From assembly GCA_051362555.1 (NCBI GenBank), contig CM120641.1, positions 6,448,001-6,512,000 on the forward strand: DNA of 64,000 nucleotides. The letters are read 5' to 3'. The notes below the pieces were generated by a model, which did not search any database, was not told the DNA's origin, and saw nothing but the letters and a program-made list of their open reading frames with translations. Both the position numbers and the translations under genes were made by a program. Of this stretch, positions 5,360 to 20,129 are shown piece after piece (the first letter of the stretch is position 1; the number at the start of each line of letters is the position of its first letter). This stretch comes from Lingula anatina (Eukaryota; Animalia; Brachiopoda).

Positions 5360-5809
5360 TCCCGGTCCAATAAGACAGCGGCATCATAGTTTAAAAACTT
5401 CCATTAGGAAGAGCACCCGTGTATTCGTCACGATCATCCCAGTTTTGAACATGAACCAGTCAAGCCTAGCGTACTCATTTCTTCTTCCGTGTGATTGGCT
5501 CTAATTTTTGGTTGGTCAAAATCATTAATCTTCGTATCAAACCCTTAATTAAAACATTGTGAGCTTATGGGAAAAGAGGTAGTATATCTATTATCAATTA
5601 CACCGATATTATAAAGTTGAATTTTTAAAAAAGACCAAAATAAGACAAAATTCACTTTTGATAAATCGCCCTATTTTTCTACCGTCCAATGAAAACGACG
5701 TTAACATAGGCATCCCTACTTTTAACGCATGCGTCGTAATACCGGAAAAGGGGAAAGTCCACGTGGGTTTGTTTTGATTTTGTTTTGTTCTGTTCCTGTT
5801 GTGCATACA
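5360..5809. promoter_or_regulatory. Probable promoter of SRR copy 1 (possibly bidirectional)
   Basis: Local CpG enrichment in CpG-poor DNA; ATTGG near 5494, CCAAT near 5686, palindrome acgcatgcgt (5725-5734), ETS-like accggaaa (5741). Confidence 0.45.
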
Positions 5810-8800
5810 ATGTCGTTGGGTATAGAGTACCGGCATCTTACAGAAGCATACGAACGAATCAGTCCGCATATTCACAAAACACCAATATATACTAGTTCTT
5901 ACATAGATGAACTGGTAGAAAAGAAAGTGTATTTTAAAGGCGAACATCTACAAAAGACTGGTTCATTCAAGGCAAGAGGAGCTCTGAATGCTGTGAGTGA
6001 TTAAATCCACATCTGATCAGTTTCATATCATGTTATTCCCCACCCTATCATTATTACCTTTCTCCCCAACTGGAGAAACAGTGGGATTTTAAATAAGAGG
6101 ATGATTGATTTGGGCAAATACTGGTAAGTTACAAAAAATTATGTAAAATTGCAAGAAAACTTACCTGTAATTGTTTTTTGCTTGAGCTATATAGTATATA
6201 CTACAGTACTTAGTAGTATTACTATTACTATTTACTGTAGAAAAAAACAGAGTCACAGTGTTGCACATCAAGGGTTCTTTATTTTACAGGTGTTGTCATT
6301 AAAAGAGAAAAATCCTGAAAACAGTGGTGTTGTAAGTATTGCTAACTTTATAAAAGTACCAAATAAATAAACTTTTAACTTTATATACCCTGTGCTAAAG
6401 TGAAGAGTGAAAACATGTGTATATATAAGACAATTAGGAATATTTTATGAATATAAATGAGATACCCCCTTGTATGTAGATTTTAATTTCAACAAAATAG
6501 TAGTAACCACAACAATCAAAGTCATTATGCTGACTTAAAAATATGTAATGATTAGTGCAAAGTTGTGAACTCATCTTAATTTCACTATACTTTTTAGGTA
6601 ACTCACAGCAGTGGTAATCATGGTCAGGCCTTGGCATGGGCAGCTAGGTATGCAGGTATGAAATGCACTGTTGTCGTTCCAAGCAATGCACCTGCTGTTA
6701 AAGTTGCTGCAATCAAGGACTATGGTGCTGACCTGGTATTCTGTGAGCCAAACCCCACATCTAGGTGAGGTGTAGCAAATATCACATATTAAGTTTAAAA
6801 TATTTTCTAACTGTACAATGGTAAATGTACTTTCTACCTTTTAAAAAAGTCATATTCTTTTCTGTATGTTTTGTCTCATGTTTAGCATTGGTTTCCTTTA
6901 AAATGCCATTTGGATTTATTTCAAATGTTTTATAACATTTTAGACAAGAAACATGTGCCAAAATTTCTGCTGAGAAAAACCAGACCATCATTCCACCATA
7001 TGACCATCAGGATGTCATTGCTGGACAGGTGATTGGAATTTTAATAGATTTTATTAGATAGAGTAATACAGAAATCACAAGGAAAATTTAAACCTTAGAT
7101 AAGAGACCTTTTTAGAAGTTATGAAGAAAGATTCACTTTCACAGCATTCAGTTCCATATTAGTGCATATTGTTTGTAGTTCTGTTTAAAAACACCACAGA
7201 ACGTCTTAAGTTTACAGATGTATTCTTTGTCATGTTGGAGACAACTGTTTGATATCTTATATTAGAGCAAACTGTTTGTCAAAAAATCTTTAGACATTCA
7301 TAAATGTATATCATTAGTATTCCAACATTGGAGCAATTTTAGATTATACTGATGTGCTTTGTTATTGTCAGATTCATGACTCAAAATTCACCCTCAAAGT
7401 CATACCTTATATGTACATCTAATTTGAATTATTTTTTATACATTTGTGATTTTAGGGAAGTATTGGCATTGAATTGATGGAACAGGTTCCTGACTTGGAA
7501 GCTATACTTGTTCCCATTAGTGGTGGGGGGATGACATCAGGGATTTGTATTGCAGCAAAGGCTGTAAAACCTGACATCAAAAGTAAGTTATAGTCAGAAG
7601 TATATGCTGTATGCATTTGGAGATGTCCTAAAGTTATATTTCTACTATGCCTGCATCTTTAACTGTGCTGGATTGAAGTGACACTCTTATATAAAATCTC
7701 ATTTTGATAGCCAAGGTCCCATGAAATGACACATAAATTGCAAATGGAAGGGCCAGATGTTCAGTTTTATTTGTGTATTGTTTTTCTGTAGGGCTTTTAT
7801 CACAAATATGTTGGGTTTTTTTTTTCAGTTTTTGCATGTGAGCCTAAAGGCAAAGACCTGGAGTATTCCCTTAAGGCAGGTAAACCAATGTGGCCAGATC
7901 CACCCAAGTTTGTAGATACCATTGCTGATGGCCTGAGGGTGCAGAGACTGGGAACACTGACCTTTCCAGTTGTTTTGGAATTGGTAGAAAAAGAAGTTTT
8001 CACAACTGTGAGTATAAATAATATTGATCATTTAGGTCATAAGGCTCTCATCCATTGGAAGTCTGAGATCTTCATGCTTTGTAGCAGTAGCCTTTACTGG
8101 GCATGGGGATAATAAATCTCATTTATTTCATATTATCTTTTTAAAGTGCCCTTGTCTTTTATATTCACAAACAAACTACACAGAAGTGTTTCTTAAAAAA
8201 AAAATGGTATTATTATATTTATTATTATTTTTATTGCTGTGTTTTTCAGAAGCTGTTTCATGCCTGAATCCACAATGTCCACAGTATTACAAATGTAGTT
8301 GTGTATTATCACTAGTTTGCAAATGATCTATGCCATTTCATTTCTCAATTTACTTCTTTGGACGCGTTCATATCGAGTTGAGCCATGGCTCTACAAAGCC
8401 ACGACCTAAATATGGCGGACGTACATGAAAGGAAAACCGCCTTATCTTTTAATAGTCTCTCCGCCTCTCACACGCCTTCCCATGTGTCGTCCCAATGGAG
8501 CCGAGATTTAATGACTGTACCCCCGCAGGGCGACGCATGGGGAGGCGTGTGAGAGGCGGGGAGACTATTAAAAAATTAGGCGGTTTTCCTTTCATGTACG
8601 TCCGCCATATTTAGGTCGTGGCTTTGTAGAGCCATGGCTCAACTCGATGTGAATGCGGCCTTTGAGGGCATTCAAAACAAGTTGATCTGTGGACTAACAG
8701 ATCCGCAGTTCAAATATGGTGGACCCACATAAAAGCAAAGCCAACTAAATCCATTACAAGGGAGTGAATGCGCCATTAAATGGATTAAATAACGACTTCA

Positions 8801-9486
8801 AGGTTTAATTGCAAGACCCCTGCAGGGACAGCGCATGTGGAGGCAGGGAGACCATCAACCAATAATAAGTTGACTCTGCTTTAGTGAAGGTTGGCCATAT
8901 TTGATCTCCAGGTCTGTTAGTCTGCAGATGAACTTGTTCTGAATGCCCTCTTATTTTGTGTTTTTCCATGGGAAATTGATGATCTGAAACAGAAAATGAA
9001 ATGTACTTTCATACAAAGTAATAGACAATCTCCTAGAGTGCCAAGATCCATTGTATTAATTTTATCAGTATTGCTTTAAGCACACTGTATCTTTTTGTTT
9101 AATTTTAATTCAGAGTGATGATGACATCATAAAAGCCATGAAGTTAGTGTATCAGAGAATGAAGGTATGCTGAACATTCATTTCAGAAGTAAAAGAATAT
9201 TAAATTTTGGAAGTATTTTTTTATTATGAATGAAATCTGTGAAACTAGATATTATCTAATTGAATTTTCCAAAATTCTGTTTATTTTCCACAGTATAATC
9301 TAACTACAACTTTTAAAACTTGATTTCCTGTATAATTTTCAGCAAGTGATTGAGCCCAGCTCAGGTGTGGGTGTGGCTGCTCTTCTCTCTGACAAGATGA
9401 AAATACTGACACCCGACATGAAGAAAGTGGGTGTCATTCTCTGTGGAGGGAATACTGACATTGAGCACTTGCCTTGGATGAAATAA
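5810..9486 (+). CDS. SRR: Serine racemase-family PLP enzyme (fold type II), copy 1; 8 exons, 325 aa
   Basis: Exons 5810-5992, 6290-6331, 6598-6764, 6944-7028, 7456-7582, 7829-8007, 9114-9164, 9343-9486, all GT-AG with a continuous frame. Motifs: QKTGSFKARGALNA (PLP lysine K54), THSSGNHGQA (racemase-type second Ser), IIPPYD...VIAGQG, VPISGGGM (phosphate-binding Gly loop), DTIADGL, VIEPSSG, ILCGGN. Confidence 0.95.
8360..8660. mobile_element. MITE with ~130-bp near-perfect inverted arms (PIF/Harbinger-like termini)
   Basis: ggacgcgttcatatcgagttgagccatggctctacaaagcc... versus ...ggctttgtagagccatggctcaactcgatgtgaatgcggcc; ttt on both flanks; absent from the paralogous intron 6 of copy 2. Confidence 0.85.
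8664..8950. mobile_element. Second, related and more diverged MITE abutting the first
   Basis: TIR gagggcattcaaaacaagtt / aacttgttctgaatgccctc with imperfect long arms; shares the internal motif cccc(t)gcaggg...gcatg.ggaggc with 8360-8660; absent from copy 2. Confidence 0.75.
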
Positions 9487-10005
9487 AAAATCTAAGCATA
9501 TCTATTGATGGTGAATTTAAACATTATAATTAAAATTAACTAAGCACATTAAATACCTCTACTCCAAGTTTCACAGACATACCCTATGGTTACGTCCGAT
9601 CCTCAGGGGGCATGTTTATTCAAAATATCAAAATATATATATATATACTTCTTTTAATCCCTTTGATAAACAGAGAAGATCAGTATTTTTCATAAGTTAA
9701 TGTTAATCGCCAACTTAATGTTTTGAATTGTGAAATATCTCAGATACTTGCTCAATGTAAAGCGAACTCTGAAAAATGTATTGTAGGGAGTTGCATAGAA
9801 GCTTTTATTGATTGTAAGTTTTTATGACAGTGTGATGGTATGCCATCTTAGATAAAAATGTGCTCTTCACTTTTGGTTTTATTACACAATGAATGCATGT
9901 AAGGTCAACATTCTGATGTCCACTTTAAAGGACTATACTGGCCAGTAGCCATGTTGTATGGGTTTCTTTATACTGGCATTTCAAAAATCAACATGGTTTC
10001 TCCCG

Positions 10006-10163
10006 GTGGTGTCTTGATAGTCCGAAGGTTCATTGCTCCAAAAAATTGGTAACATTTTCATCAGTTTATTAATCAAGGATTTATTGTTCCGAAGGTTCTA
10101 TAGTGAACATTCAGATCAATGAACCTTCAGACTGTTGAACCTTTGAACTATTGCTACGGCCAC
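10006..10163. mobile_element. MITE with internal (tagtccgaaggttc)-type subrepeats in the 3' region of SRR copy 1
   Basis: Subrepeats run forward in the left half and inverted (gaaccttcagact) in the right half. Degenerate ~9-bp flanking duplication tttctcccg/tttctacca. Copy 2 has the empty site tttctgcca. Confidence 0.65.
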
Positions 10164-10294
10164 TTTCTACCAATGTCAGCTGCCAAATTGACAGCCCATT
10201 GATTTTTAAGTAACTGATTTTTTTTAAAAATTTGTATTGTTTGATTTATTGAAATGTGTAATGTGTACTTGTTTACACAGTTAAATGTCACATT

Positions 10295-10300
10295 AATAAA
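10295..10300 (+). terminator. Candidate polyadenylation signal of SRR copy 1
   Basis: AATAAA conserved at the paralogous position 19553-19558 in copy 2, with T-rich sequence downstream. Confidence 0.4.
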
Positions 10301-11021
10301 ATATATATTTCTTATGAAGAAAAATGAGTGATATCATATTGGTTTCACCTTTTAATTGTTTTGGCTTCTGTTTTAGCATAAATCAGAACCCAGTGGGTAA
10401 CCATTGAAAAATTTATGCTTTATCAATAGAAAAGTCTTGGAATTAAATAGATACATATATGCCCCAGTGGCCTCACCATTCCAGAGTCTTGCTCTATAAG
10501 CAACAGGGTTAATATGGTAACGGCGAACTCAAGGCCAAATGTGATAGTTGAGCCAAACACATCCGCGCCCCTGTAAAATAGTTGAGCCAAACATATTCAT
10601 TCCCTTAAAACCAGCCCTGACGAAAGATTAGAACTTCATCACAACATACCATACACCAATTCGTTGCGACTTTCCACAGCATGTCAAGAAAAAAAAGAAG
10701 ATTCACAATTGCATTTGCCTATATTGAGCTAATTCACTTTTATGCGATAAATTTTGGAACTTTGAATGACAACATGGATCCAGGCAAAAGATCGAGTATC
10801 TAAATGAATTTGATGATAGAAATAGACAGAAAAAAGGTCAACTGGAGTTGGTATTTAACGTCGAAGAAGTGTCATTGTCATTTAGACTATTGCAATTCTG
10901 TACTCAGTGGCTTGTACCAACGAAAGAATGAAAAAACTGCAGCAAATTCAGAATGTTTTAGTGCGTTTTTTAACCCACACAGCCAGGTAGGCTCATATCA
11001 CACCCATTCTAAAGCAGTTAC

Positions 11022-11104
11022 ACTGGCTCCCAAGTCAGAGCACTCATTTTATTTAAATTTTTTTAAAATTTTAAATAAAATGAGTGCTCTGACTGGGAGC
11101 CAGT
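11022..11104. repeat. Near-perfect ~83-bp palindrome (fold-back duplication inside the LINE remnant)
   Basis: actggctcccaagtcagagcactcattttatttaaatttt ... aaaattttaaataaaatgagtgctctgactgggagccagt. Confidence 0.9.
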
Positions 11105-13778: not shown

Positions 13779-13853
13779 ATAGCAATAGTCCAAAGGTTCA
13801 ATGGTCCGAAGGTTCATTAAAGGTTCATTAGTCCAAAGGTTCTATAGTCTGAA
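13779..13853. mobile_element. Fragment of the tagtccgaaggttc MITE family at the duplication junction
   Basis: Four tandem gtcc(g/a)aaggttc-type units; matches the end of 10006-10163. Confidence 0.6.
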
Positions 13854-14208
13854 AACAGTCGATATTTATATTTTCTATCACATCGGGAATCTGTTGATAT
13901 TGTATTTTGCATGTTACAGTAAAATATAGAAAACAAGGGCAATTTCCGTTTTTCCATTTTTCATTTTATATGGAAAAGCGAAAATTGAGTTCCATTTCCC
14001 ATTACATTTTAGGCATTTCTATCAAAAGGAAATGAAAAACGGCCGTTTTTTCATTTTTTGACGAAATGGAAATCACTTTGCCCCGCCATACACGGACCGT
14101 TGACATAGGCACCCCCACTTCTAACGCATGCGTTGTAATACCGGAAAAGGGAAATGTCCACGTGGGATTGTTTTGATTTTGTTTTGTTTTGTTCCTGTTG
14201 TGCATGCA

Positions 14209-17200
14209 ATGTCGTTGGGTATAGAGTACCGGCATCTTACAGAAGCATACGAACGAATCAGCCCGCATATTCACAAAACACCAATATTTTCTAGTTCTTA
14301 CATAAATGGCCTGGTAGAGAAGAAAGTGTATTTTAAAGGTGAACATCTACAAAAGACTGGTTCATTCAAGGCAAGAGGAGCTTTGAATGCTGTGAGTGAT
14401 TAAATTAATCCACAATCAGATCTGAATCTGATCATGTTATTTCCCACCGTACTATTATTACCTTTCTCCCCAACTGGAGAGACAGTGAGATTTAAAATAA
14501 GAGGATGTAAGAGATACTTTGATTATGGCAAATAAGATGCAAAAATTATGTGAAATTGAATACTTACTGTACATGTAGCTGTAAGTTTTTCTGCTTCACC
14601 TACACGCCCTTGTACATCGAATACTAGTAGTCTTTCAAAAAATTAATAAAAATTAAAATAAAAAATAATAATAAAATAAAAATAAAATAAATAAATAAAT
14701 AATAGAAAAGGTCACAGTGCTGCGTGTCAAGGGTTCTTTATTTTACAGGTGTTGTCATTAAAAGAGAAAAATCCTGAAAACAGTGGTGTTGTAAGTATTG
14801 TTGACTTACTAGAAGTACCAAATCAATGAACTTTTAACTTTATATACCCTGTGCTTAAGTGAAGAGTGTAAACATTTTAATATGTAAGACATTTAAGCAT
14901 ATTTTAAGAATATAAATTAGATACCCATGTCTGTAAATTTTGATTTTAACAAATTTATTTTAGTTACCTCAACAATGAAATTCATTATGCTGACTTAAAA
15001 AATACAGTGTACACATATGTAATGATTAGTGCAAAGTGATGAACTCTTCTTAATTTCACTATACTTTTTAGGTGACTCACAGCAGTGGTAATCATGGTCA
15101 AGCCTTGGCATGGGCAGCTAGGTATGCAGGTATGCAATGCACTGTTGTAATCCCAAGCAACGCACCTGCTGTTAAAGTTGCTGCAATCAAGGACTATGGT
15201 GCTGACCTGGTATTTTGTGAGCCAAACCCCATGTCTAGGTGAGGTTTGACAAAAACATGTATCAGCTATTACGTTATTGAGTAAATATCACTTCAATCTT
15301 GCAAGAATTTTGGACATTATTTTCTAACTGTACAATGGTGTATGTACTTTCAATTTTGTTTTTATTGCTTCTACCTATTAAAAAAGTCACATTCTTTTCT
15401 GTATGTTTTGTCTCATGTTTAGCATTGGTTTCCTTTAAAATGTTATTTGGATTTATTTCAAAAGTTTTATAACATTTTAGACAAGAAACATGTGCCAAAA
15501 TTTCTGCTGAGAAAAACCAGACCATCATTCCATCATTTGACTATTTGGATGTCATTGCTGGAGAGGTGATTGGAATATTAATAGGTTTTATTAGATAGAG
15601 TAATACAGAGATCACAAGGAAAAATAAAACCTTAGAAGTTATTAAGAGAGGTTCACTTTCCAGCATTTAGTTCCATATTAGTGCATATTGTTTGTGATTC
15701 TGTATAAAAACACCACAGAACCTCTTAAAAGTTTTAGATGTATTCTTTGTCGTGCTGAGACAATTGTTTGATATCCTATATTAAAGGGAACTGTTTGTCA
15801 AAAAATCTATGGACATTCATAATTGTATATCATTGGTATTCCAACATTGGAGCAATTTTAGATAATACTGTTGTGTTTTGTTATGGTCAGATTCATGACT
15901 CAAAATTCACCCTCATATTTTACTTTATATGTACATCTAATTTTAATTTTTATGCATTATATGATTTTAGGGTAGTATTGGCATTGAATTGATGGAACAG
16001 GTTCCTGACTTGGAAGCTATACTTGTTCCCATTAGTGGTGGGGGGATGATATCAGGGATTTGTATTGCAGCAAAGGCTGTAAAACCTGACATCAAAAGTA
16101 AGTTATGGTGAAAAACATATACACTGCATGCATTTGAAAATGTCCTAATGTTATATTTCTACTATGCCTGCATCTTTTACTGTGTTGGTTTGGGGTTCAT
16201 GTCGTTACTCCCCCGCACCGATATACTCCCCCACACCAATAATCCCCCTTAGTAAATTTTTGTATTATGCGCATCAATAGGACCCCACACTGGTAGATCC
16301 CCACAACAATACATCCCCTATAAAATTGTGCACCGTTACTCCCCCACACCATTGCTTCCTCGATCACATCGATACTGCAGGGGAGTATCAGTGCGGGGGA
16401 GTATCCGTGCGGGATGTACCGTTGCGGGGGAGTATCGGTGTGGGGACGTATATGGTTTGAGGTATGTGGCACTCTTATGTAAAATCTCATTTTGATAGCC
16501 AAGGTCACATGAAATGTACCCTTGGTTCTAGATTCCGGTATTGCCAGCTCGATCTTGATTTCATATATAACCCATATCAACAATACTGGCTCTAGCGAAC
16601 AGCGGCCATGTTACACTTCCGTCAATCAAATAGAACTGCTCCACAGTGAATCTGCAGTTGAATGTCATCAGACCAAAATGAAACGTAAAACAGATTTAAT
16701 TCTGCTTTATTTAATTTTATTTGCTGTATATAAGATGAAAAGTGAAAAAATAAATAATATTCTTCGAAAAGAAAAGATATATCCAATGTTTTTATATTTT
16801 TTGCTTATCAAAAAACATTTAGTCCTGAGATATACATGTGCACAATACACGTGCTTGCCGTGTGCCAAATTTGACAGCTACACTGTTTGCCCGATACCAC
16901 TATAAGGGCTGCGCAATGGCTACACGAAAATCAGTTTTTAAAGCAGAATGTTGCTTGTATTGTGGCACTGACCTTCGACTGCAAGATAATTTCAATTTAA
17001 ACTTCTATCTCCGCATTAGGCACTTTAATTGCTTCTTGTCTCGTCTGCACGAGATAACTTCAGCGCAAGGTGGGAAAGGCAGCTCCAGGCGGCCAAACCT
17101 GTGACGTACGAGACTTATGACTTCCAAATATGGATCCAGGCAGATACAGCTGTGACGTGTGACTTCCAAATATGGAAGCGCCCCAGGCAAAATTTTGAAG

Positions 17201-18683
17201 AAGAACGCCCTCAGATTTTCGCTGTTCATCAGAGCTAGTAAAAGCGCCCCCATCACAAGGTATATTTAACAAGCTAGCTTTTAGGTTGCTCTGACACTCA
17301 GGGTGCATGAAATGGCACATAAATTGCAAATGGAAGGGCCAGAGATTCACAGTCATATATGTTCAAAGTTTTATTTGTAAATTGATTTTCTGTAGGACTT
17401 TTATCACAAGTATGTAGTTTTTTTTTTTTTTTTCAGTTTTTGCATGTGAGCCTAAAGGCAAAGACCTGGAGTATTCCCTTAAGGCAGGTAAACCAATGTG
17501 GCCAGATCCACCCAAGTTTGTAGATACCATTGCTGATGGCCTGAGGGTGCAGAGACTAGGAACACTGACCTTTCCAGTTGTTTTGGAATTGGTAGAAAAA
17601 GATGTTTTTACAACTGTGAGTATAAATAATATTGATCATTTAGGCCATAAGCCTCTCATCCATCGGAAGTCTGAGATCTTCATGCTTTGTGGCATGGGGG
17701 TAATAAATCCCATCTACTCCATCTTATCTTTTGAAAGTGCCCTTGTCTTTTTTGTTCAAAACCAAACTACACAGAAGTGTTTCTGAAAGATAAAAATTGT
17801 ATTATTATATTTATTATTATTATTATTATTGATGTGGGTTCTCAGAAGCTGTTTTGTGGCAGAGTTCACAATGTTAACAGAATTCTCTCTTAATACTCGC
17901 CATTAACAACAGCAACAACCAAACTGTATCTCACTGGGAGAGCCAACTGCTAACACTGTTGTTTTTATTGTAATCAAATAAAACATGTTATCTTATAATA
18001 CCATTTACATAAAGTATTCTGACAAATGTATACACATTTGAAAAGAAAATATTACCAAAATATTATCAGCAGCTTGCAGTTGATCCATGCCACTTTATTT
18101 CTTCTGCTTCTTTGTAGTTTTCCATATGAAATTGATAATCTAAAAGAGAAAATTAACTGCACATACATACAATGCTATAGACAATCTCCTAGAGTGCCAA
18201 TTGAGGTCCGGTGCTTTAATATGTTCAGTCAATATAAAGACACTGTTGTTTTTAATGCTTTAATCATATTATGATATATTTTTGTTTAACTTTTATTTAG
18301 AGTGATGATGACATCATAGAAGCAATGAAGTTAGTGTATCAGAGAATGAAGGTATGCTGAACATTTATTTTAGAAGTAAAAAAATCTTAATTTTTGGAAT
18401 TTGTTTTGCCTCATGAATGAAACCTATGAAATTAGATATTATCTATTGATTATCATTTGAATGTTCCAAATTCCTGTTTATTTTCCACAGTACAATCTAA
18501 CTACAACTTTTTAAACTTGATTTCCTATACCGTTTTCAGCAAGTGATTGAGCCCAGCTCAGGTGTGGGTGTGGCTGCTCTTCTCTCTGACAAGATGAAAA
18601 AACTGACACCCGACATGAAGAAAGTAGGTGTCATTCTCTGTGGAGGGAATACTGACATTGAGCACTTGCCTTGGATGAAATAA
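14209..18683 (+). CDS. SRR: Serine racemase-family PLP enzyme, copy 2 (tandem paralog); 8 exons, 325 aa, intact
   Basis: Exons 14209-14391, 14749-14790, 15072-15238, 15481-15565, 15971-16097, 17437-17615, 18301-18351, 18540-18683. Exon lengths equal those of copy 1, with no stops or frameshifts. Catalytic Lys (SFKARG) and Ser (HSSGNH) are retained. 16 aa differ from copy 1. Confidence 0.93.
16193..16452. mobile_element. MITE with internal (tactcccccgcaccga) subrepeats, in SRR copy 2 intron 5
   Basis: Subrepeats forward then inverted (tgcgggggagtatc); flanked by tggtttg repeats; absent from copy 1; same family as 19223-19403 in the opposite orientation. Confidence 0.75.
16517..17305. mobile_element. 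789-bp non-autonomous DNA element with a perfect 9-bp TSD (MULE- or AcademH-like), in SRR copy 2 intron 5
   Basis: TSD catgaaatg at 16508-16516 and 17306-17314 (single copy in SRR copy 1); imperfect TIR tacccttggttctaga / tctgacactcagggtg. Confidence 0.85.
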
Positions 18684-18691
18684 AAACTCTA

Positions 18692-18694
<3 letters not shown>

Positions 18695-18723
<29 letters not shown>
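18695..18723. repeat. (TA)n microsatellite just after the SRR copy 2 stop codon
   Basis: Direct inspection; not expanded in copy 1. Confidence 0.9.
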
Positions 18724-18725
<2 letters not shown>

Positions 18726-19222
18726 TATAGTTTCTAGAGTGTTCAATTCTGAAGGGAGAATTTTTATATGAAAATAAAAATTAAGTACCTCTACTCCAGG
18801 TTTCACAGACATACCCTATGGTTATGTCCGATCCTCAGGAGGCATGTTTATTCAAATATATTTATATATACTTTGATTAATCCCTTAAATATACAAAGAA
18901 GATCAATATTTTTTCATAAGTTAATCACCAACTTCATGTTTTGAATTGTTAAATATCTCAGATACTTAATATATTGTTCAATGTTAAACATACTGTGAAA
19001 AATGTAATCTGGGGAGTTGCATAGAGGCTTTGATTGTCTGTGAATTTTTATTGACAGTGTGATGGTATGCCATTTTAGATGAAAATGTGCTGTTTACTTA
19101 TGGTTTTGTAACACAGATAAATTAATGCATGTTAGGTCAAGATTCTGATGTCCACTTTAAAGGACTATACTGGCCTGTATAGCCATGTTGTATGGGTTTC
19201 TTTATACTGGCATTGCAAAAAT

Positions 19223-19403
19223 GGTTACATGTGGATACATCTCCGCATCAATGCTTCCCCGCACCGATACTCCCCCTACAATTGCAGATATACTGAGGGG
19301 GAGTATCAGTGAGGGGATCTATCGGTGTGGGGTCGTATCGATGTGCATAATACAAAAAATTACAAGGGGGATTATCAGTGCGGGGGGAGTATCGACATGA
19401 CCC
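19223..19403. mobile_element. MITE with a perfect 9-bp TSD in the 3' region of SRR copy 2
   Basis: TSD tgcaaaaat at 19214-19222 and 19404-19412; TIR ggttacatgtggatac / gtatcgacatgaccc; empty site in copy 1. Confidence 0.85.
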
Positions 19404-20129
19404 TGCAAAAATCAACATGGTTTCTGCCAACCTCAAATGCCAAATTGATAGCAAATTGATTTTAAGTAACCACTGATTTTTAAAAATGATTGTATTGTTT
19501 GATTTATTGAAATGTTTCATGTGTACTTGTTTACACAGTTAAATGCCACATTAATAAAATATTTTCTTATGAAGCAAAGTGAGTGATGTCATTGACTTCA
19601 TCTCTTAATTGTTTTGGCTTCTGTTTTAGCATAAATCAGAACCCTGTGGCAACCGTTGAAAATTTTATGATTTATCAATTAACAAAACGACTGGAATTAT
19701 ATATATATGCTCCACCATTTCAGGGCCTGTTCTTTAGGCAACAGGGTGAGTATGGTAACGGCGAAATGTGATAGTTGAGCCAAACACATCCACGCCCATG
19801 TAAACTAGTTGAGCCAAACGCATCCACTCCCTTGTAATCAGCTCTGACTTCTATCACAACATAATACACCAAATCGTTGCAACTTTCTACAGCATGTCAA
19901 GAAAAAAAAAAAAAAAAAGATTCGCAATAGTGTTGTGCTAATAGCCTAGTCTATATTGAGCCAATTCACTTTTACGAGATAAATTTTGGAACTACGAATG
20001 GCGACATGGACCAATAAAGTATCTAAATGAGATCGACGATAAAAATAGAAAGAAATAGAAAAAAGTCAACTTGAGTTGTTATTTAACGTCAAAGAAGTGT
20101 CTTAGTAAAATTGGGGTGAAATTCGATCT

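What the first reader, a model, noticed from the sequence alone, without database searches (positions are those of the whole stretch)
15533..15565. Young racemase paralog with clustered replacements in the substrate-specificity ('triple serine') loop
Seen: exon 4 is identical between the copies for its first 52 nt. Then 6 nucleotide differences change 5 codons, all replacements: P149S, Y150F, H152Y, Q153L, Q159E (IIPPYDHQDVIAGQ vs IIPSFDYLDVIAGE). That places 5 of the 16 protein differences in 11 residues. Established: P148-P149-Y150 aligns with H152-P153-N154 of human serine racemase. In the animal serine/aspartate racemase family, serines in this loop are associated with aspartate racemase activity, and invertebrate aspartate racemases arose by duplication of serine racemase. 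The Q of the AGQG motif is normally highly conserved. Catalytic Lys and Ser are intact in both copies, and T129M lies two residues before the Arg equivalent to human R135. Inference: copy 2 may be an early neofunctionalised enzyme with changed substrate (Asp, Asn, Glu or another) or a changed racemase/dehydratase ratio.
Basis: partly seen in the sequence, partly recalled or inferred. Interest (0 to 1): 0.85.

Follow-up and report, generated by a model that had tools for sequence, protein, structure and literature searches.

The report
Young brachiopod racemase copy, altered pocket
A brachiopod carries two side-by-side copies of a serine racemase gene, and the weakly expressed second copy has changed its substrate pocket in a way that likely marks the first step of a known route from serine to aspartate racemase, though the enzyme is untested and drift is not excluded.

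Summary
The changes are derived in copy 2. The copies are true paralogs (introns about 10% diverged, with indels). Copy 2's loop, Pro-Ser-Phe, is not the two-or-three-serine loop of aspartate racemases. It matches the one-serine state of characterised dual Ser/Asp racemases (P. chlororaphis Pro-Ser-Tyr; mouse P153S). Q159E hits a pocket residue; Glu occurs there in 0 of 119 and 0 of 149 homologs, but it is tolerated in six bacterial genomes (five labelled Acidovorax). Against neofunctionalisation: copy 2 gives only 3 of 84 reads at the loop (8 runs). The cluster (P about 0.007) loses significance if neighbouring changes arose together (P 0.05 to 0.36), and P149S plus Y150F complete a perfect 8-nt tandem repeat. 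For it: no disabling mutation, far fewer replacements than neutral, and faster protein change than copy 1. Verdict: likely an early intermediate on a known, repeatedly used SerR-to-AspR route; untested; positive selection not shown. The scan's index held no related finding.

The parts
5810..9486 (+). Copy 1 racemase gene, ATG to stop, 8 exons (5810-5992, 6290-6331, 6598-6764, 6944-7028, 7456-7582, 7829-8007, 9114-9164, 9343-9486); ancestral-type loop Pro-Pro-Tyr and Gln159; major transcript
   Evidence: protein identical to P0121 (XP_013383767.1); reads
14209..18683 (+). Copy 2 racemase gene, ATG to stop, 8 exons (14209-14391, 14749-14790, 15072-15238, 15481-15565, 15971-16097, 17437-17615, 18301-18351, 18540-18683); minor transcript
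   Evidence: differs from P0001 (XP_013383766.1) at residues 2 and 97 only
5699..10873 (+). Extent of the duplicated block, first copy (homology starts 111 nt before the ATG)
   Evidence: self-BLAST
14098..20101 (+). Extent of the duplicated block, second copy; the 3.2 kb between the blocks has no counterpart in the window
   Evidence: self-BLAST
15530..15538 (+). 'Triple serine loop' triad of copy 2, codons 148-150, Pro-Ser-Phe (copy 1 Pro-Pro-Tyr)
15522..15537 (+). Perfect 8-nt tandem repeat, present only in copy 2 and completed by the two changes that give P149S and Y150F
15542..15547 (+). Codons 152-153, H152Y and Q153L (three changes in 5 nt); variable positions in the family
15563..15565 (+). 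Codon 159, Q159E, last codon of exon 4; equivalent to E. coli IlvA Gln166, a named substrate-pocket residue
15231..15233 (+). Codon 129, T129M, two residues before R131 (human R135); a variable site, but Met in 0 of 119 homologs
14368..14370 (+). Catalytic Lys54 of copy 2 (human K56), intact
15084..15086 (+). Re-face base Ser80 of copy 2 (human S84), intact
16193..17305 (.). About 1.1 kb of repeat-derived sequence in intron 5 of copy 2, nearly all absent from copy 1
   Evidence: reads from many other loci pile up on it

Best explanation
Copy 2 is a young, intact, weakly expressed tandem duplicate of an ancestral-type serine racemase, and its derived Pro-to-Ser change in the middle of the substrate loop likely makes it a dual serine/aspartate racemase with less dehydratase activity, the predicted first step of the known serine-to-aspartate racemase route. 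Shown: the duplication, the direction of change, intact catalytic residues, low expression and partial constraint. Inferred from assayed analogues: replacing the rigid Pro149 by Ser loosens the loop above the PLP aldimine, admits Asp (whose side-chain carboxylate would bind the retained R131) and shifts partitioning from beta-elimination to racemisation. Y150F, H152Y and Q153L are probably minor. Q159E alters the same pocket with unknown effect and may lower activity. Whether selection favoured these changes or merely tolerated them is open.
For: Direction: copy 1's loop matches the published reconstructed ancestor of animal SerR/AspR (P-P-Y...A-G-Q; PMC11850409 Table S4). In a quick 54-row tree the copy-1 branch is 0 and the copy-2 branch 0.051. 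Reads of a more divergent study (run X7) carry copy-1 letters at all five loop sites, 6 of 6. Analogues: P. chlororaphis Pro-Ser-Tyr racemises Ser and Asp with equal kcat/Km and has no dehydratase activity, and mouse His-Ser-Asn is active on both (PMC11850409 sections 13 and 16). The mouse His-Ser-Asn mutant also shifts the racemisation:elimination ratio from 1:2.3 to 23:1 in kcat (PMC6424897 Table 2). Parallel cases: serine-rich loops arise separately in decapods, several bivalve groups and gastropods, and Owenia has a sister pair His-Pro-Tyr / His-Ser-Tyr at 83% identity. Constraint: there is no stop, indel or splice loss, where about 9-11.5 such events are expected at the intron rate (P 1e-4 to 1e-5), and 13-17 replacement changes against 43 expected. 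K54, S80 and R131 are kept; the model has pLDDT 96 and TM 0.97 to aspartate racemase 5YBW. Position 159 is changed (Ala, Val, His) in several active enzymes of the family, and Glu is kept there in six bacterial homologs under purifying selection.
Against: No activity was measured. Copy-2 letters are only 3 of 84 reads at 15533, 6 of 124 at 15161, 6 of 99 at 14290 and 3 of 62 at 16050 over 8 runs, clearly present in 2 runs (X3, X4), although the reference favoured copy 2. The cluster is not significant if adjacent changes are single events, and two of them complete a tandem repeat. The copy-2 dN/dS estimate of 0.3-0.57 is also what partly relaxed selection gives, and the polarised asymmetry is borderline (Fisher P 0.05-0.32). 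A Glu in the pocket could repel Asp. All assayed one-serine analogues keep Gln at this site, and the natural Pro-Ser-Tyr enzyme is slow (kcat 0.06-0.28 as tabulated). The six bacterial Glu-bearing homologs lack the re-face Ser, so they show only that the fold tolerates Glu, not that racemisation does.
Confidence: 0.5

Rival explanations
1. Copy 2 is a spare under relaxed selection. It lost most of its expression, a few multi-base mutation events happened to hit exon 4, and the enzyme is weakened or unchanged in role, with no new function.
For: About 4-6% of reads. Upstream homology ends 111 nt before the ATG, so the promoter may not have been copied (inference). The five clustered changes are all to T; P149S+Y150F complete a perfect 8-nt tandem repeat (chance 0.2-0.7% under a general spectrum, 8% if all changes go to T in the same window; noticed after the fact). 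Collapsing adjacent changes gives P 0.05-0.40. Multinucleotide mutations are known to mimic positive selection (10.1101/165969, abstract). Q159E hits a site that is Gln in 118 of 119 close homologs.
Against: No disabling mutation and a strong deficit of replacements against neutral expectation. The rare changes fall in the substrate pocket, and P149S is exactly the change that recurs in functionally shifted family members (Ser at 149 in 28 of 119). In run X4 about half of the few reads are copy-2 type (4 of 8, 2 of 4, 1 of 3, 2 of 2), which hints at a restricted tissue or stage.
Confidence: 0.3
2. Copy 2 has moved to a substrate other than Asp (for example Asn, Glu or a basic amino acid), with Glu159 as the new determinant.
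For: Q159 is a pocket residue. The family has repeatedly produced Glu, Asn and Arg racemases, and the Asn racemase, the Salinispora Asp racemase and two Arg racemases all replace this Gln (Val or Ala); T. lienii ArgR has Ser-Ser-Phe. The combination Pro-Ser-Phe plus Glu159 was not seen in 119 or 149 homologs.
Against: None of the assayed SerR homologs in Table S4 has Glu there (only the cysteine synthase outgroup does). All Arg racemases and the Asn racemase in that table lack the Arg equivalent to R131, which copy 2 keeps, so a basic substrate is unlikely.
Confidence: 0.13
3. The two copies are uncollapsed alleles or an assembly artefact.
For: The species is heterozygous (1.6%; PMC4595640, passage). 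No DNA reads were available to test the junction, and no whole genome was held.
Against: Introns differ by 8-16% with many indels and a 1.1-kb insertion, and dS is 8.3%, five times the quoted heterozygosity. Only a gene-sized block is repeated, in tandem with unique spacer and flanks. RefSeq holds both proteins under consecutive accessions with the same longest-contig length (its independence from this window is not established). Run X3 shows both types at about 10:1, not 1:1.
Confidence: 0.03

Closest known systems
Animal serine/aspartate racemase family (fold-type II PLP; Uda et al. 2016, 2017, Uda and Moe 2022, known here only through PMC11850409 and PMC6424897)
   Same: Fold, catalytic Lys and Ser, Arg135 equivalent; duplication followed by serine substitutions in the 150-152 loop is the published route to aspartate racemase.
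   Different: A very young pair (95% identical proteins) with only one loop serine, plus Glu at the conserved Gln; copy 2 is weakly expressed; no assay exists in the papers I could search.
Pseudomonas chlororaphis Ser/AspR (loop Pro-Ser-Tyr) and mouse SerR P153S (His-Ser-Asn)
   Same: One serine in the middle position of the triad, with Arg retained; both are assayed as active on Ser and Asp (PMC11850409).
   Different: Both keep Gln at the 159 position; one is bacterial, the other an engineered mutant; Phe rather than Tyr or Asn follows the serine in copy 2.
Anadara (Scapharca) broughtonii aspartate racemase, PDB 5YBW
   Same: Closest solved structure (E 2.7e-114 by sequence; TM 0.97, 52% identity by fold); shares the Cys under the pyridine ring and the invertebrate C-terminal motif with both copies.
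   Different: Has Ser-Ser-Ser and Gln; the similarity reflects invertebrate ancestry and applies to copy 1 as well.
Owenia fusiformis paralog pair P0138/P0141 (uncharacterised)
   Same: Sister paralogs, one with His-Pro-Tyr and one with His-Ser-Tyr: the same single Pro-to-Ser step.
   Different: Older (83% identity), keeps Gln159, independent duplication.

Membership tests
Serine/aspartate racemase family (fold-type II PLP) | Fold and sequence closest to serine/aspartate racemases | tested here: met
   Top PDB hits by sequence and fold are 5YBW and serine racemases; no bacterial NCBIfam model reaches its cut-off.
Serine/aspartate racemase family (fold-type II PLP) | Catalytic Lys (human K56), re-face Ser (S84) and Arg135 equivalent | tested here: met
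   K54, S80 and R131 are present in both copies.
Typical serine racemase (SerR) | Triad His/Pro-Pro-Phe/Tyr/Asn with no serine (PMC11850409 section 16) | tested here: not met
   Met by copy 1 (Pro-Pro-Tyr); not met by copy 2 (Pro-Ser-Phe).
Animal aspartate racemase (AspR) | Two or three serines in the triad (Pro-Ser-Ser, His-Ser-Ser, Ser-Ser-Ser) | tested here: not met
   Copy 2 has one serine (rule from PMC11850409 section 16).
Animal aspartate racemase (AspR) | Measured preference for Asp racemisation | not testable with these tools
   Needs an enzyme assay.
Dual Ser/Asp racemase (one-serine type) | Serine at the middle triad position with Arg135 equivalent retained | tested here: met
   Pro-Ser-Phe and R131 against Pro-Ser-Tyr and Arg in P. 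chlororaphis Ser/AspR.
Dual Ser/Asp racemase (one-serine type) | Gln kept in the A/C-G-Q-G motif, as in the assayed analogues | tested here: not met
   Copy 2 has Glu159; the analogue has Gln.
Dual Ser/Asp racemase (one-serine type) | Measured activity on both Ser and Asp | not testable with these tools
   Needs an enzyme assay.
SerR-derived arginine racemases | Absence of the Arg135 equivalent (Ala or Thr in the seven Arg-active enzymes of Table S4; my reading of the table) | tested here: not met
   Copy 2 keeps R131.
Neofunctionalised duplicate under positive selection | Excess of independent replacements over neutral expectation on the copy-2 branch | tested here: inconclusive
   Local P 0.004 for 6 independent changes (window chosen after the fact) but 0.19 for 3 events; gene-wide copy-2 dN/dS 0.3-0.57. 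No orthologous brachiopod CDS was available for a branch-site test.

The most novel reading that the evidence does not exclude
Copy 2 is a tissue- or stage-restricted animal racemase with a specificity not yet described (for example asparagine), set by the unique Pro-Ser-Phe plus Glu159 pocket, and the key loop step arose in one slippage event that perfected an 8-nt repeat: new enzyme specificity caught within about 8% synonymous divergence of its parent.
Probability: 0.12. Interest if true: 0.7.

Novelty: new variant of a known kind. Interest (0 to 1): 0.4.

Why it matters
Serine-to-aspartate racemase conversion has happened many times in invertebrates, but the assayed cases that I could read about are end points with two or three loop serines, a bacterial enzyme, or engineered mutants. 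A natural animal pair that differs at about 14 fixed residues, with the one-serine state and its near-ancestral parent side by side, would let the order and effect of the first steps be tested with a handful of mutants. It would also point to a source of D-aspartate in brachiopods. The route itself is known, and the weak expression makes a dying spare a serious alternative, so the interest is moderate.

Tried and rejected
No whole genome was held, so other racemase paralogs in this species and the junction between the copies could not be checked. The look-up of sequencing runs: no RNA holder listed; nine raw-read runs were offered by species label and 8 of 9 were laid (X8 was not). Positions 15563 (Q159E) and 15232-15233 (T129M) lie at exon ends and did not appear in the read tables, so E159 rests on the window and the RefSeq protein. 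The loop-only homolog search (residues 128-172 of P0001) drew 2 candidates and found only itself; this is too weak to count. A reverse-complement template for the cluster within 80 nt was not found. The basic-substrate (arginine racemase) reading was considered and lowered because R131 is kept. Literature: 'Lingula + racemase' gave 4 unrelated medical papers; 'D-aspartate + brachiopod' gave 2 glutamate-receptor papers; the search for human Q163 or AGQGT gave nothing relevant; searches gave no paper on this locus in their listings. Uda 2017 and Uda and Moe 2022 are not held and Uda 2016 was not tried, so I cannot exclude that Lingula sequences appear in them or in their supplements. The careful tree did not finish, and the quick tree was used. 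Earlier findings of the scan: none near, and five unrelated ones by sequence. No complex prediction was run, since binding is not claimed.

Full report
Locus. Self-comparison of the window shows one gene-sized block repeated in tandem on the + strand: 5699-10873 and 14098-20101, with 3.2 kb of unique spacer. Each block holds an intact 8-exon gene with GT-AG introns that encodes 325 aa. Reads confirm the joints of introns 1-4 and 7 on the copy-2 reference, mostly with copy-1 reads. The copy-1 protein is identical to Lingula anatina XP_013383767.1, and copy 2 differs from XP_013383766.1 at residues 2 and 97. Both are labelled 'probable serine racemase'. The rest of the window from about 37 kb onwards holds exons of an LDL-receptor-related gene (family recognised from its repeats, recalled).

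Observation. Over the CDS there are 34 differences, 17 synonymous and 17 nonsynonymous; dS is 0.083, dN 0.023 and dN/dS 0.27. The triad 148-150 aligns with human H152-P153-N154 and with the three serines of aspartate racemase 5YBW, and R131 aligns with human R135 (counted from the alignments). Two of the 16 differences are not fixed: F27 segregates among copy-1 transcripts, and Q97 is seen neither in reads nor in the RefSeq copy-2 protein.

Paralogs, not alleles. Introns differ by 8-16%; the four cleanly aligned ones differ at 107 of 1023 bases with 16 indels. The quoted heterozygosity of the species is 1.6% (PMC4595640, passage seen). Run X3 carries both sequence types at roughly 10:1.

Direction of change. 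The published ancestor of animal SerR/AspR has P-P-Y and A-G-Q, like copy 1 (PMC11850409, Table S4 part 3 of 9). In a quick tree of 54 named animal proteins that I picked from the 229 fetched, the pair is sister with support 100, copy 1 has branch length 0 and copy 2 has 0.051 (RefSeq proteins used). Reads of study P3, mostly 90-95% alike to the window, carry copy-1 letters at the five loop sites (6 of 6 reads in X7) and at T28, D33, V102 and T186, but do not carry the copy-1 letters at E34 and at four synonymous positions (only 40 of 342 rows were shown). By my tally, about 9-10 replacement and 4 synonymous changes fall on copy 2, against 1-2 and 4-5 on copy 1; Fisher P is 0.05-0.32.

How unusual are the new residues? 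Among the 119 other proteins listed by the full-length search (120 listed of 4249 hits), Ser149 occurs in 28, nearly always with Ser, Ala or Cys at 150. One serine followed by Tyr or Phe occurs in 2 of 119, Pro-Ser-Phe in none, Glu159 in none (Gln 118), Met129 in none, Tyr152 in 2, Phe150 in 22. Among 149 of 150 more distant representatives that cover the loop, Gln is in 138, Ala in 7, His in 2, Asn in 2 and Glu in none; x-Ser-Phe/Tyr is in 3. A pattern scan of prokaryote genomes for Glu at this place gave 90 stretches, of which 6 are family members (five labelled Acidovorax, one Pseudomonadota MAG). These six differ by 34-85 bases but 5-17 residues and use both Glu codons, so the Glu is maintained. 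They have Ala in place of the re-face Ser and so are probably dehydratases.

What the residues do. In PMC11850409 (sections 13 and 16, passages, Table S4 part 3), animal and plant aspartate racemases 'invariably' have two or three serines in the triad and serine racemases have none. P. chlororaphis Pro-Ser-Tyr racemises Ser and Asp with the same kcat/Km (0.007) and shows no dehydratase activity, and mouse His-Ser-Asn acts on both. PMC6424897 (section 18, read whole) tabulates that this mouse mutant moves racemisation:elimination from 1:2.3 to 23:1 in kcat. Copy 2 therefore fails the aspartate-racemase signature but matches the one-serine, dual type. Q159 aligns with E. coli IlvA Gln166, which PMC13476584 (one passage, citing Yu et al. 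2013) names with Pro156, Phe157 and Val162 as conserved substrate-binding residues; these are positions 149, 150 and 155 here. Three of these four pocket positions changed in copy 2, though Y150F moves to the IlvA residue. The Gln is replaced by Ala, Val or His in active Asp, Arg, Asn and Ser racemases, so it is not needed for catalysis. No assayed racemase in that table has Glu. The predicted copy-2 structure is confident (pLDDT 96) and overlays 5YBW at TM 0.97; the tools gave no residue contacts.

Selection. Copy 2 is not decaying freely. At half the intron rate, about 9-11.5 stops, frameshifts or indels and splice hits are expected and none is seen (P 1e-4 to 1e-5), and 43 replacement changes are expected against at most 17. 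Positive selection is not shown. The cluster has P 0.007 for independent events, or 0.003-0.011 under variants of the null, but 0.05-0.06 if codons 149-150 changed together and 0.36-0.40 if 152-153 did too. P149S and Y150F together turn a 6-of-8 quasi-repeat into a perfect 8-nt tandem repeat at 15522-15537. Simulations give this 0.2-0.7% of the time, or 8% if all changes are to T in the same window; I noticed the pattern after the fact. Multinucleotide mutations are a known cause of false signals of selection (10.1101/165969, abstract and outline only). A one-step origin would weaken the statistical argument but not the biochemical prediction.

Expression. Eight of nine offered RNA runs were laid on copy 2 at 88% likeness, so that both copies are caught; 6-30% of each run was read. 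Letters other than copy 1's were 6 of 99 reads at 14290, 6 of 124 at 15161, 3 of 84 at 15533 and 3 of 62 at 16050. They come almost all from X3 (about 6-17% by site in exons 1-4, 0 of 15 at 16050) and X4 (about half, at depths of 2-8 reads, where mates may count twice). X1, with the most reads, shows none (0 of 46, 0 of 35, 0 of 17). Tissues are unknown, and study P3 may be a lineage without copy 2. Homology between the copies begins only 111 nt before the ATG, so copy 2 may have a different promoter (inference).

Comparison and verdict. Duplication followed by serine substitutions in this loop is the published, repeatedly used route to aspartate racemase (PMC11850409, introduction and section 16). 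My tree shows serine-rich loops in separate decapod, bivalve and gastropod clades and a second one-serine sister pair in Owenia. What is new is the snapshot: a very young pair with the one-serine state, a unique pocket Glu and its near-ancestral parent next door. I found no paper on this locus in the searches, but the three primary Uda papers on invertebrates were not read (two not held; one not tried), and they or their supplements may bear on this. Odds: early dual Ser/Asp racemase 0.5, weakened spare 0.3, other substrate 0.13, artefact 0.03. Interest 0.4.

Noticed in passing
window 37455-62761 (+), probably starting further left: Exons of a long LDL-receptor-related (LRP/megalin-like) gene with LDL-A, EGF and YWTD-type repeats (family recalled from the translations); the positive GC skew from about 22 kb onwards fits one long + strand gene.
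   Followed up: no
window 16193-17305: Repeat-derived insertion in intron 5 of copy 2; RNA reads from many other loci pile up on it on both strands, and part of it matches 19296-19392 in inverted orientation.
   Followed up: partly
window 8664-8746 and 8868-8950: Inverted repeat (80% identity, 83 nt) inside intron 6 of copy 1, in sequence that copy 2 lacks; looks like a small mobile element.
   Followed up: no
window 10017-10156 and 13780-13853: Related short-unit repeat elements in direct and inverted orientation, one downstream of copy 1 and one about 250 nt before the start of the copy-2 block; they could have had a part in the duplication.
   Followed up: partly
window 11030-11097: Near-perfect 33-nt palindrome (94%, 2-nt spacer) just after the end of the first duplicated block.
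   Followed up: no
L068 717-1691 (-), also L017, L020, L039, L049, L064: Acidovorax-type family members with Pro-Pro-Phe, Ala at the re-face Ser position and a maintained Glu at the conserved Gln site; L068 lies next to an amino-acid ABC-transporter binding protein. Substrate unknown.
   Followed up: partly
proteins P0138 and P0141 (Owenia fusiformis): Sister paralogs, 83% identical, differing by the same Pro-to-Ser loop step; a natural replicate for an assay.
   Followed up: partly
RNA runs X7 and X9 laid on window 14100-19300: Reads under the same species label are mostly 90-95% alike to the window and mix letters of both copies at synonymous sites, which suggests a diverged population or cryptic species.
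   Followed up: partly
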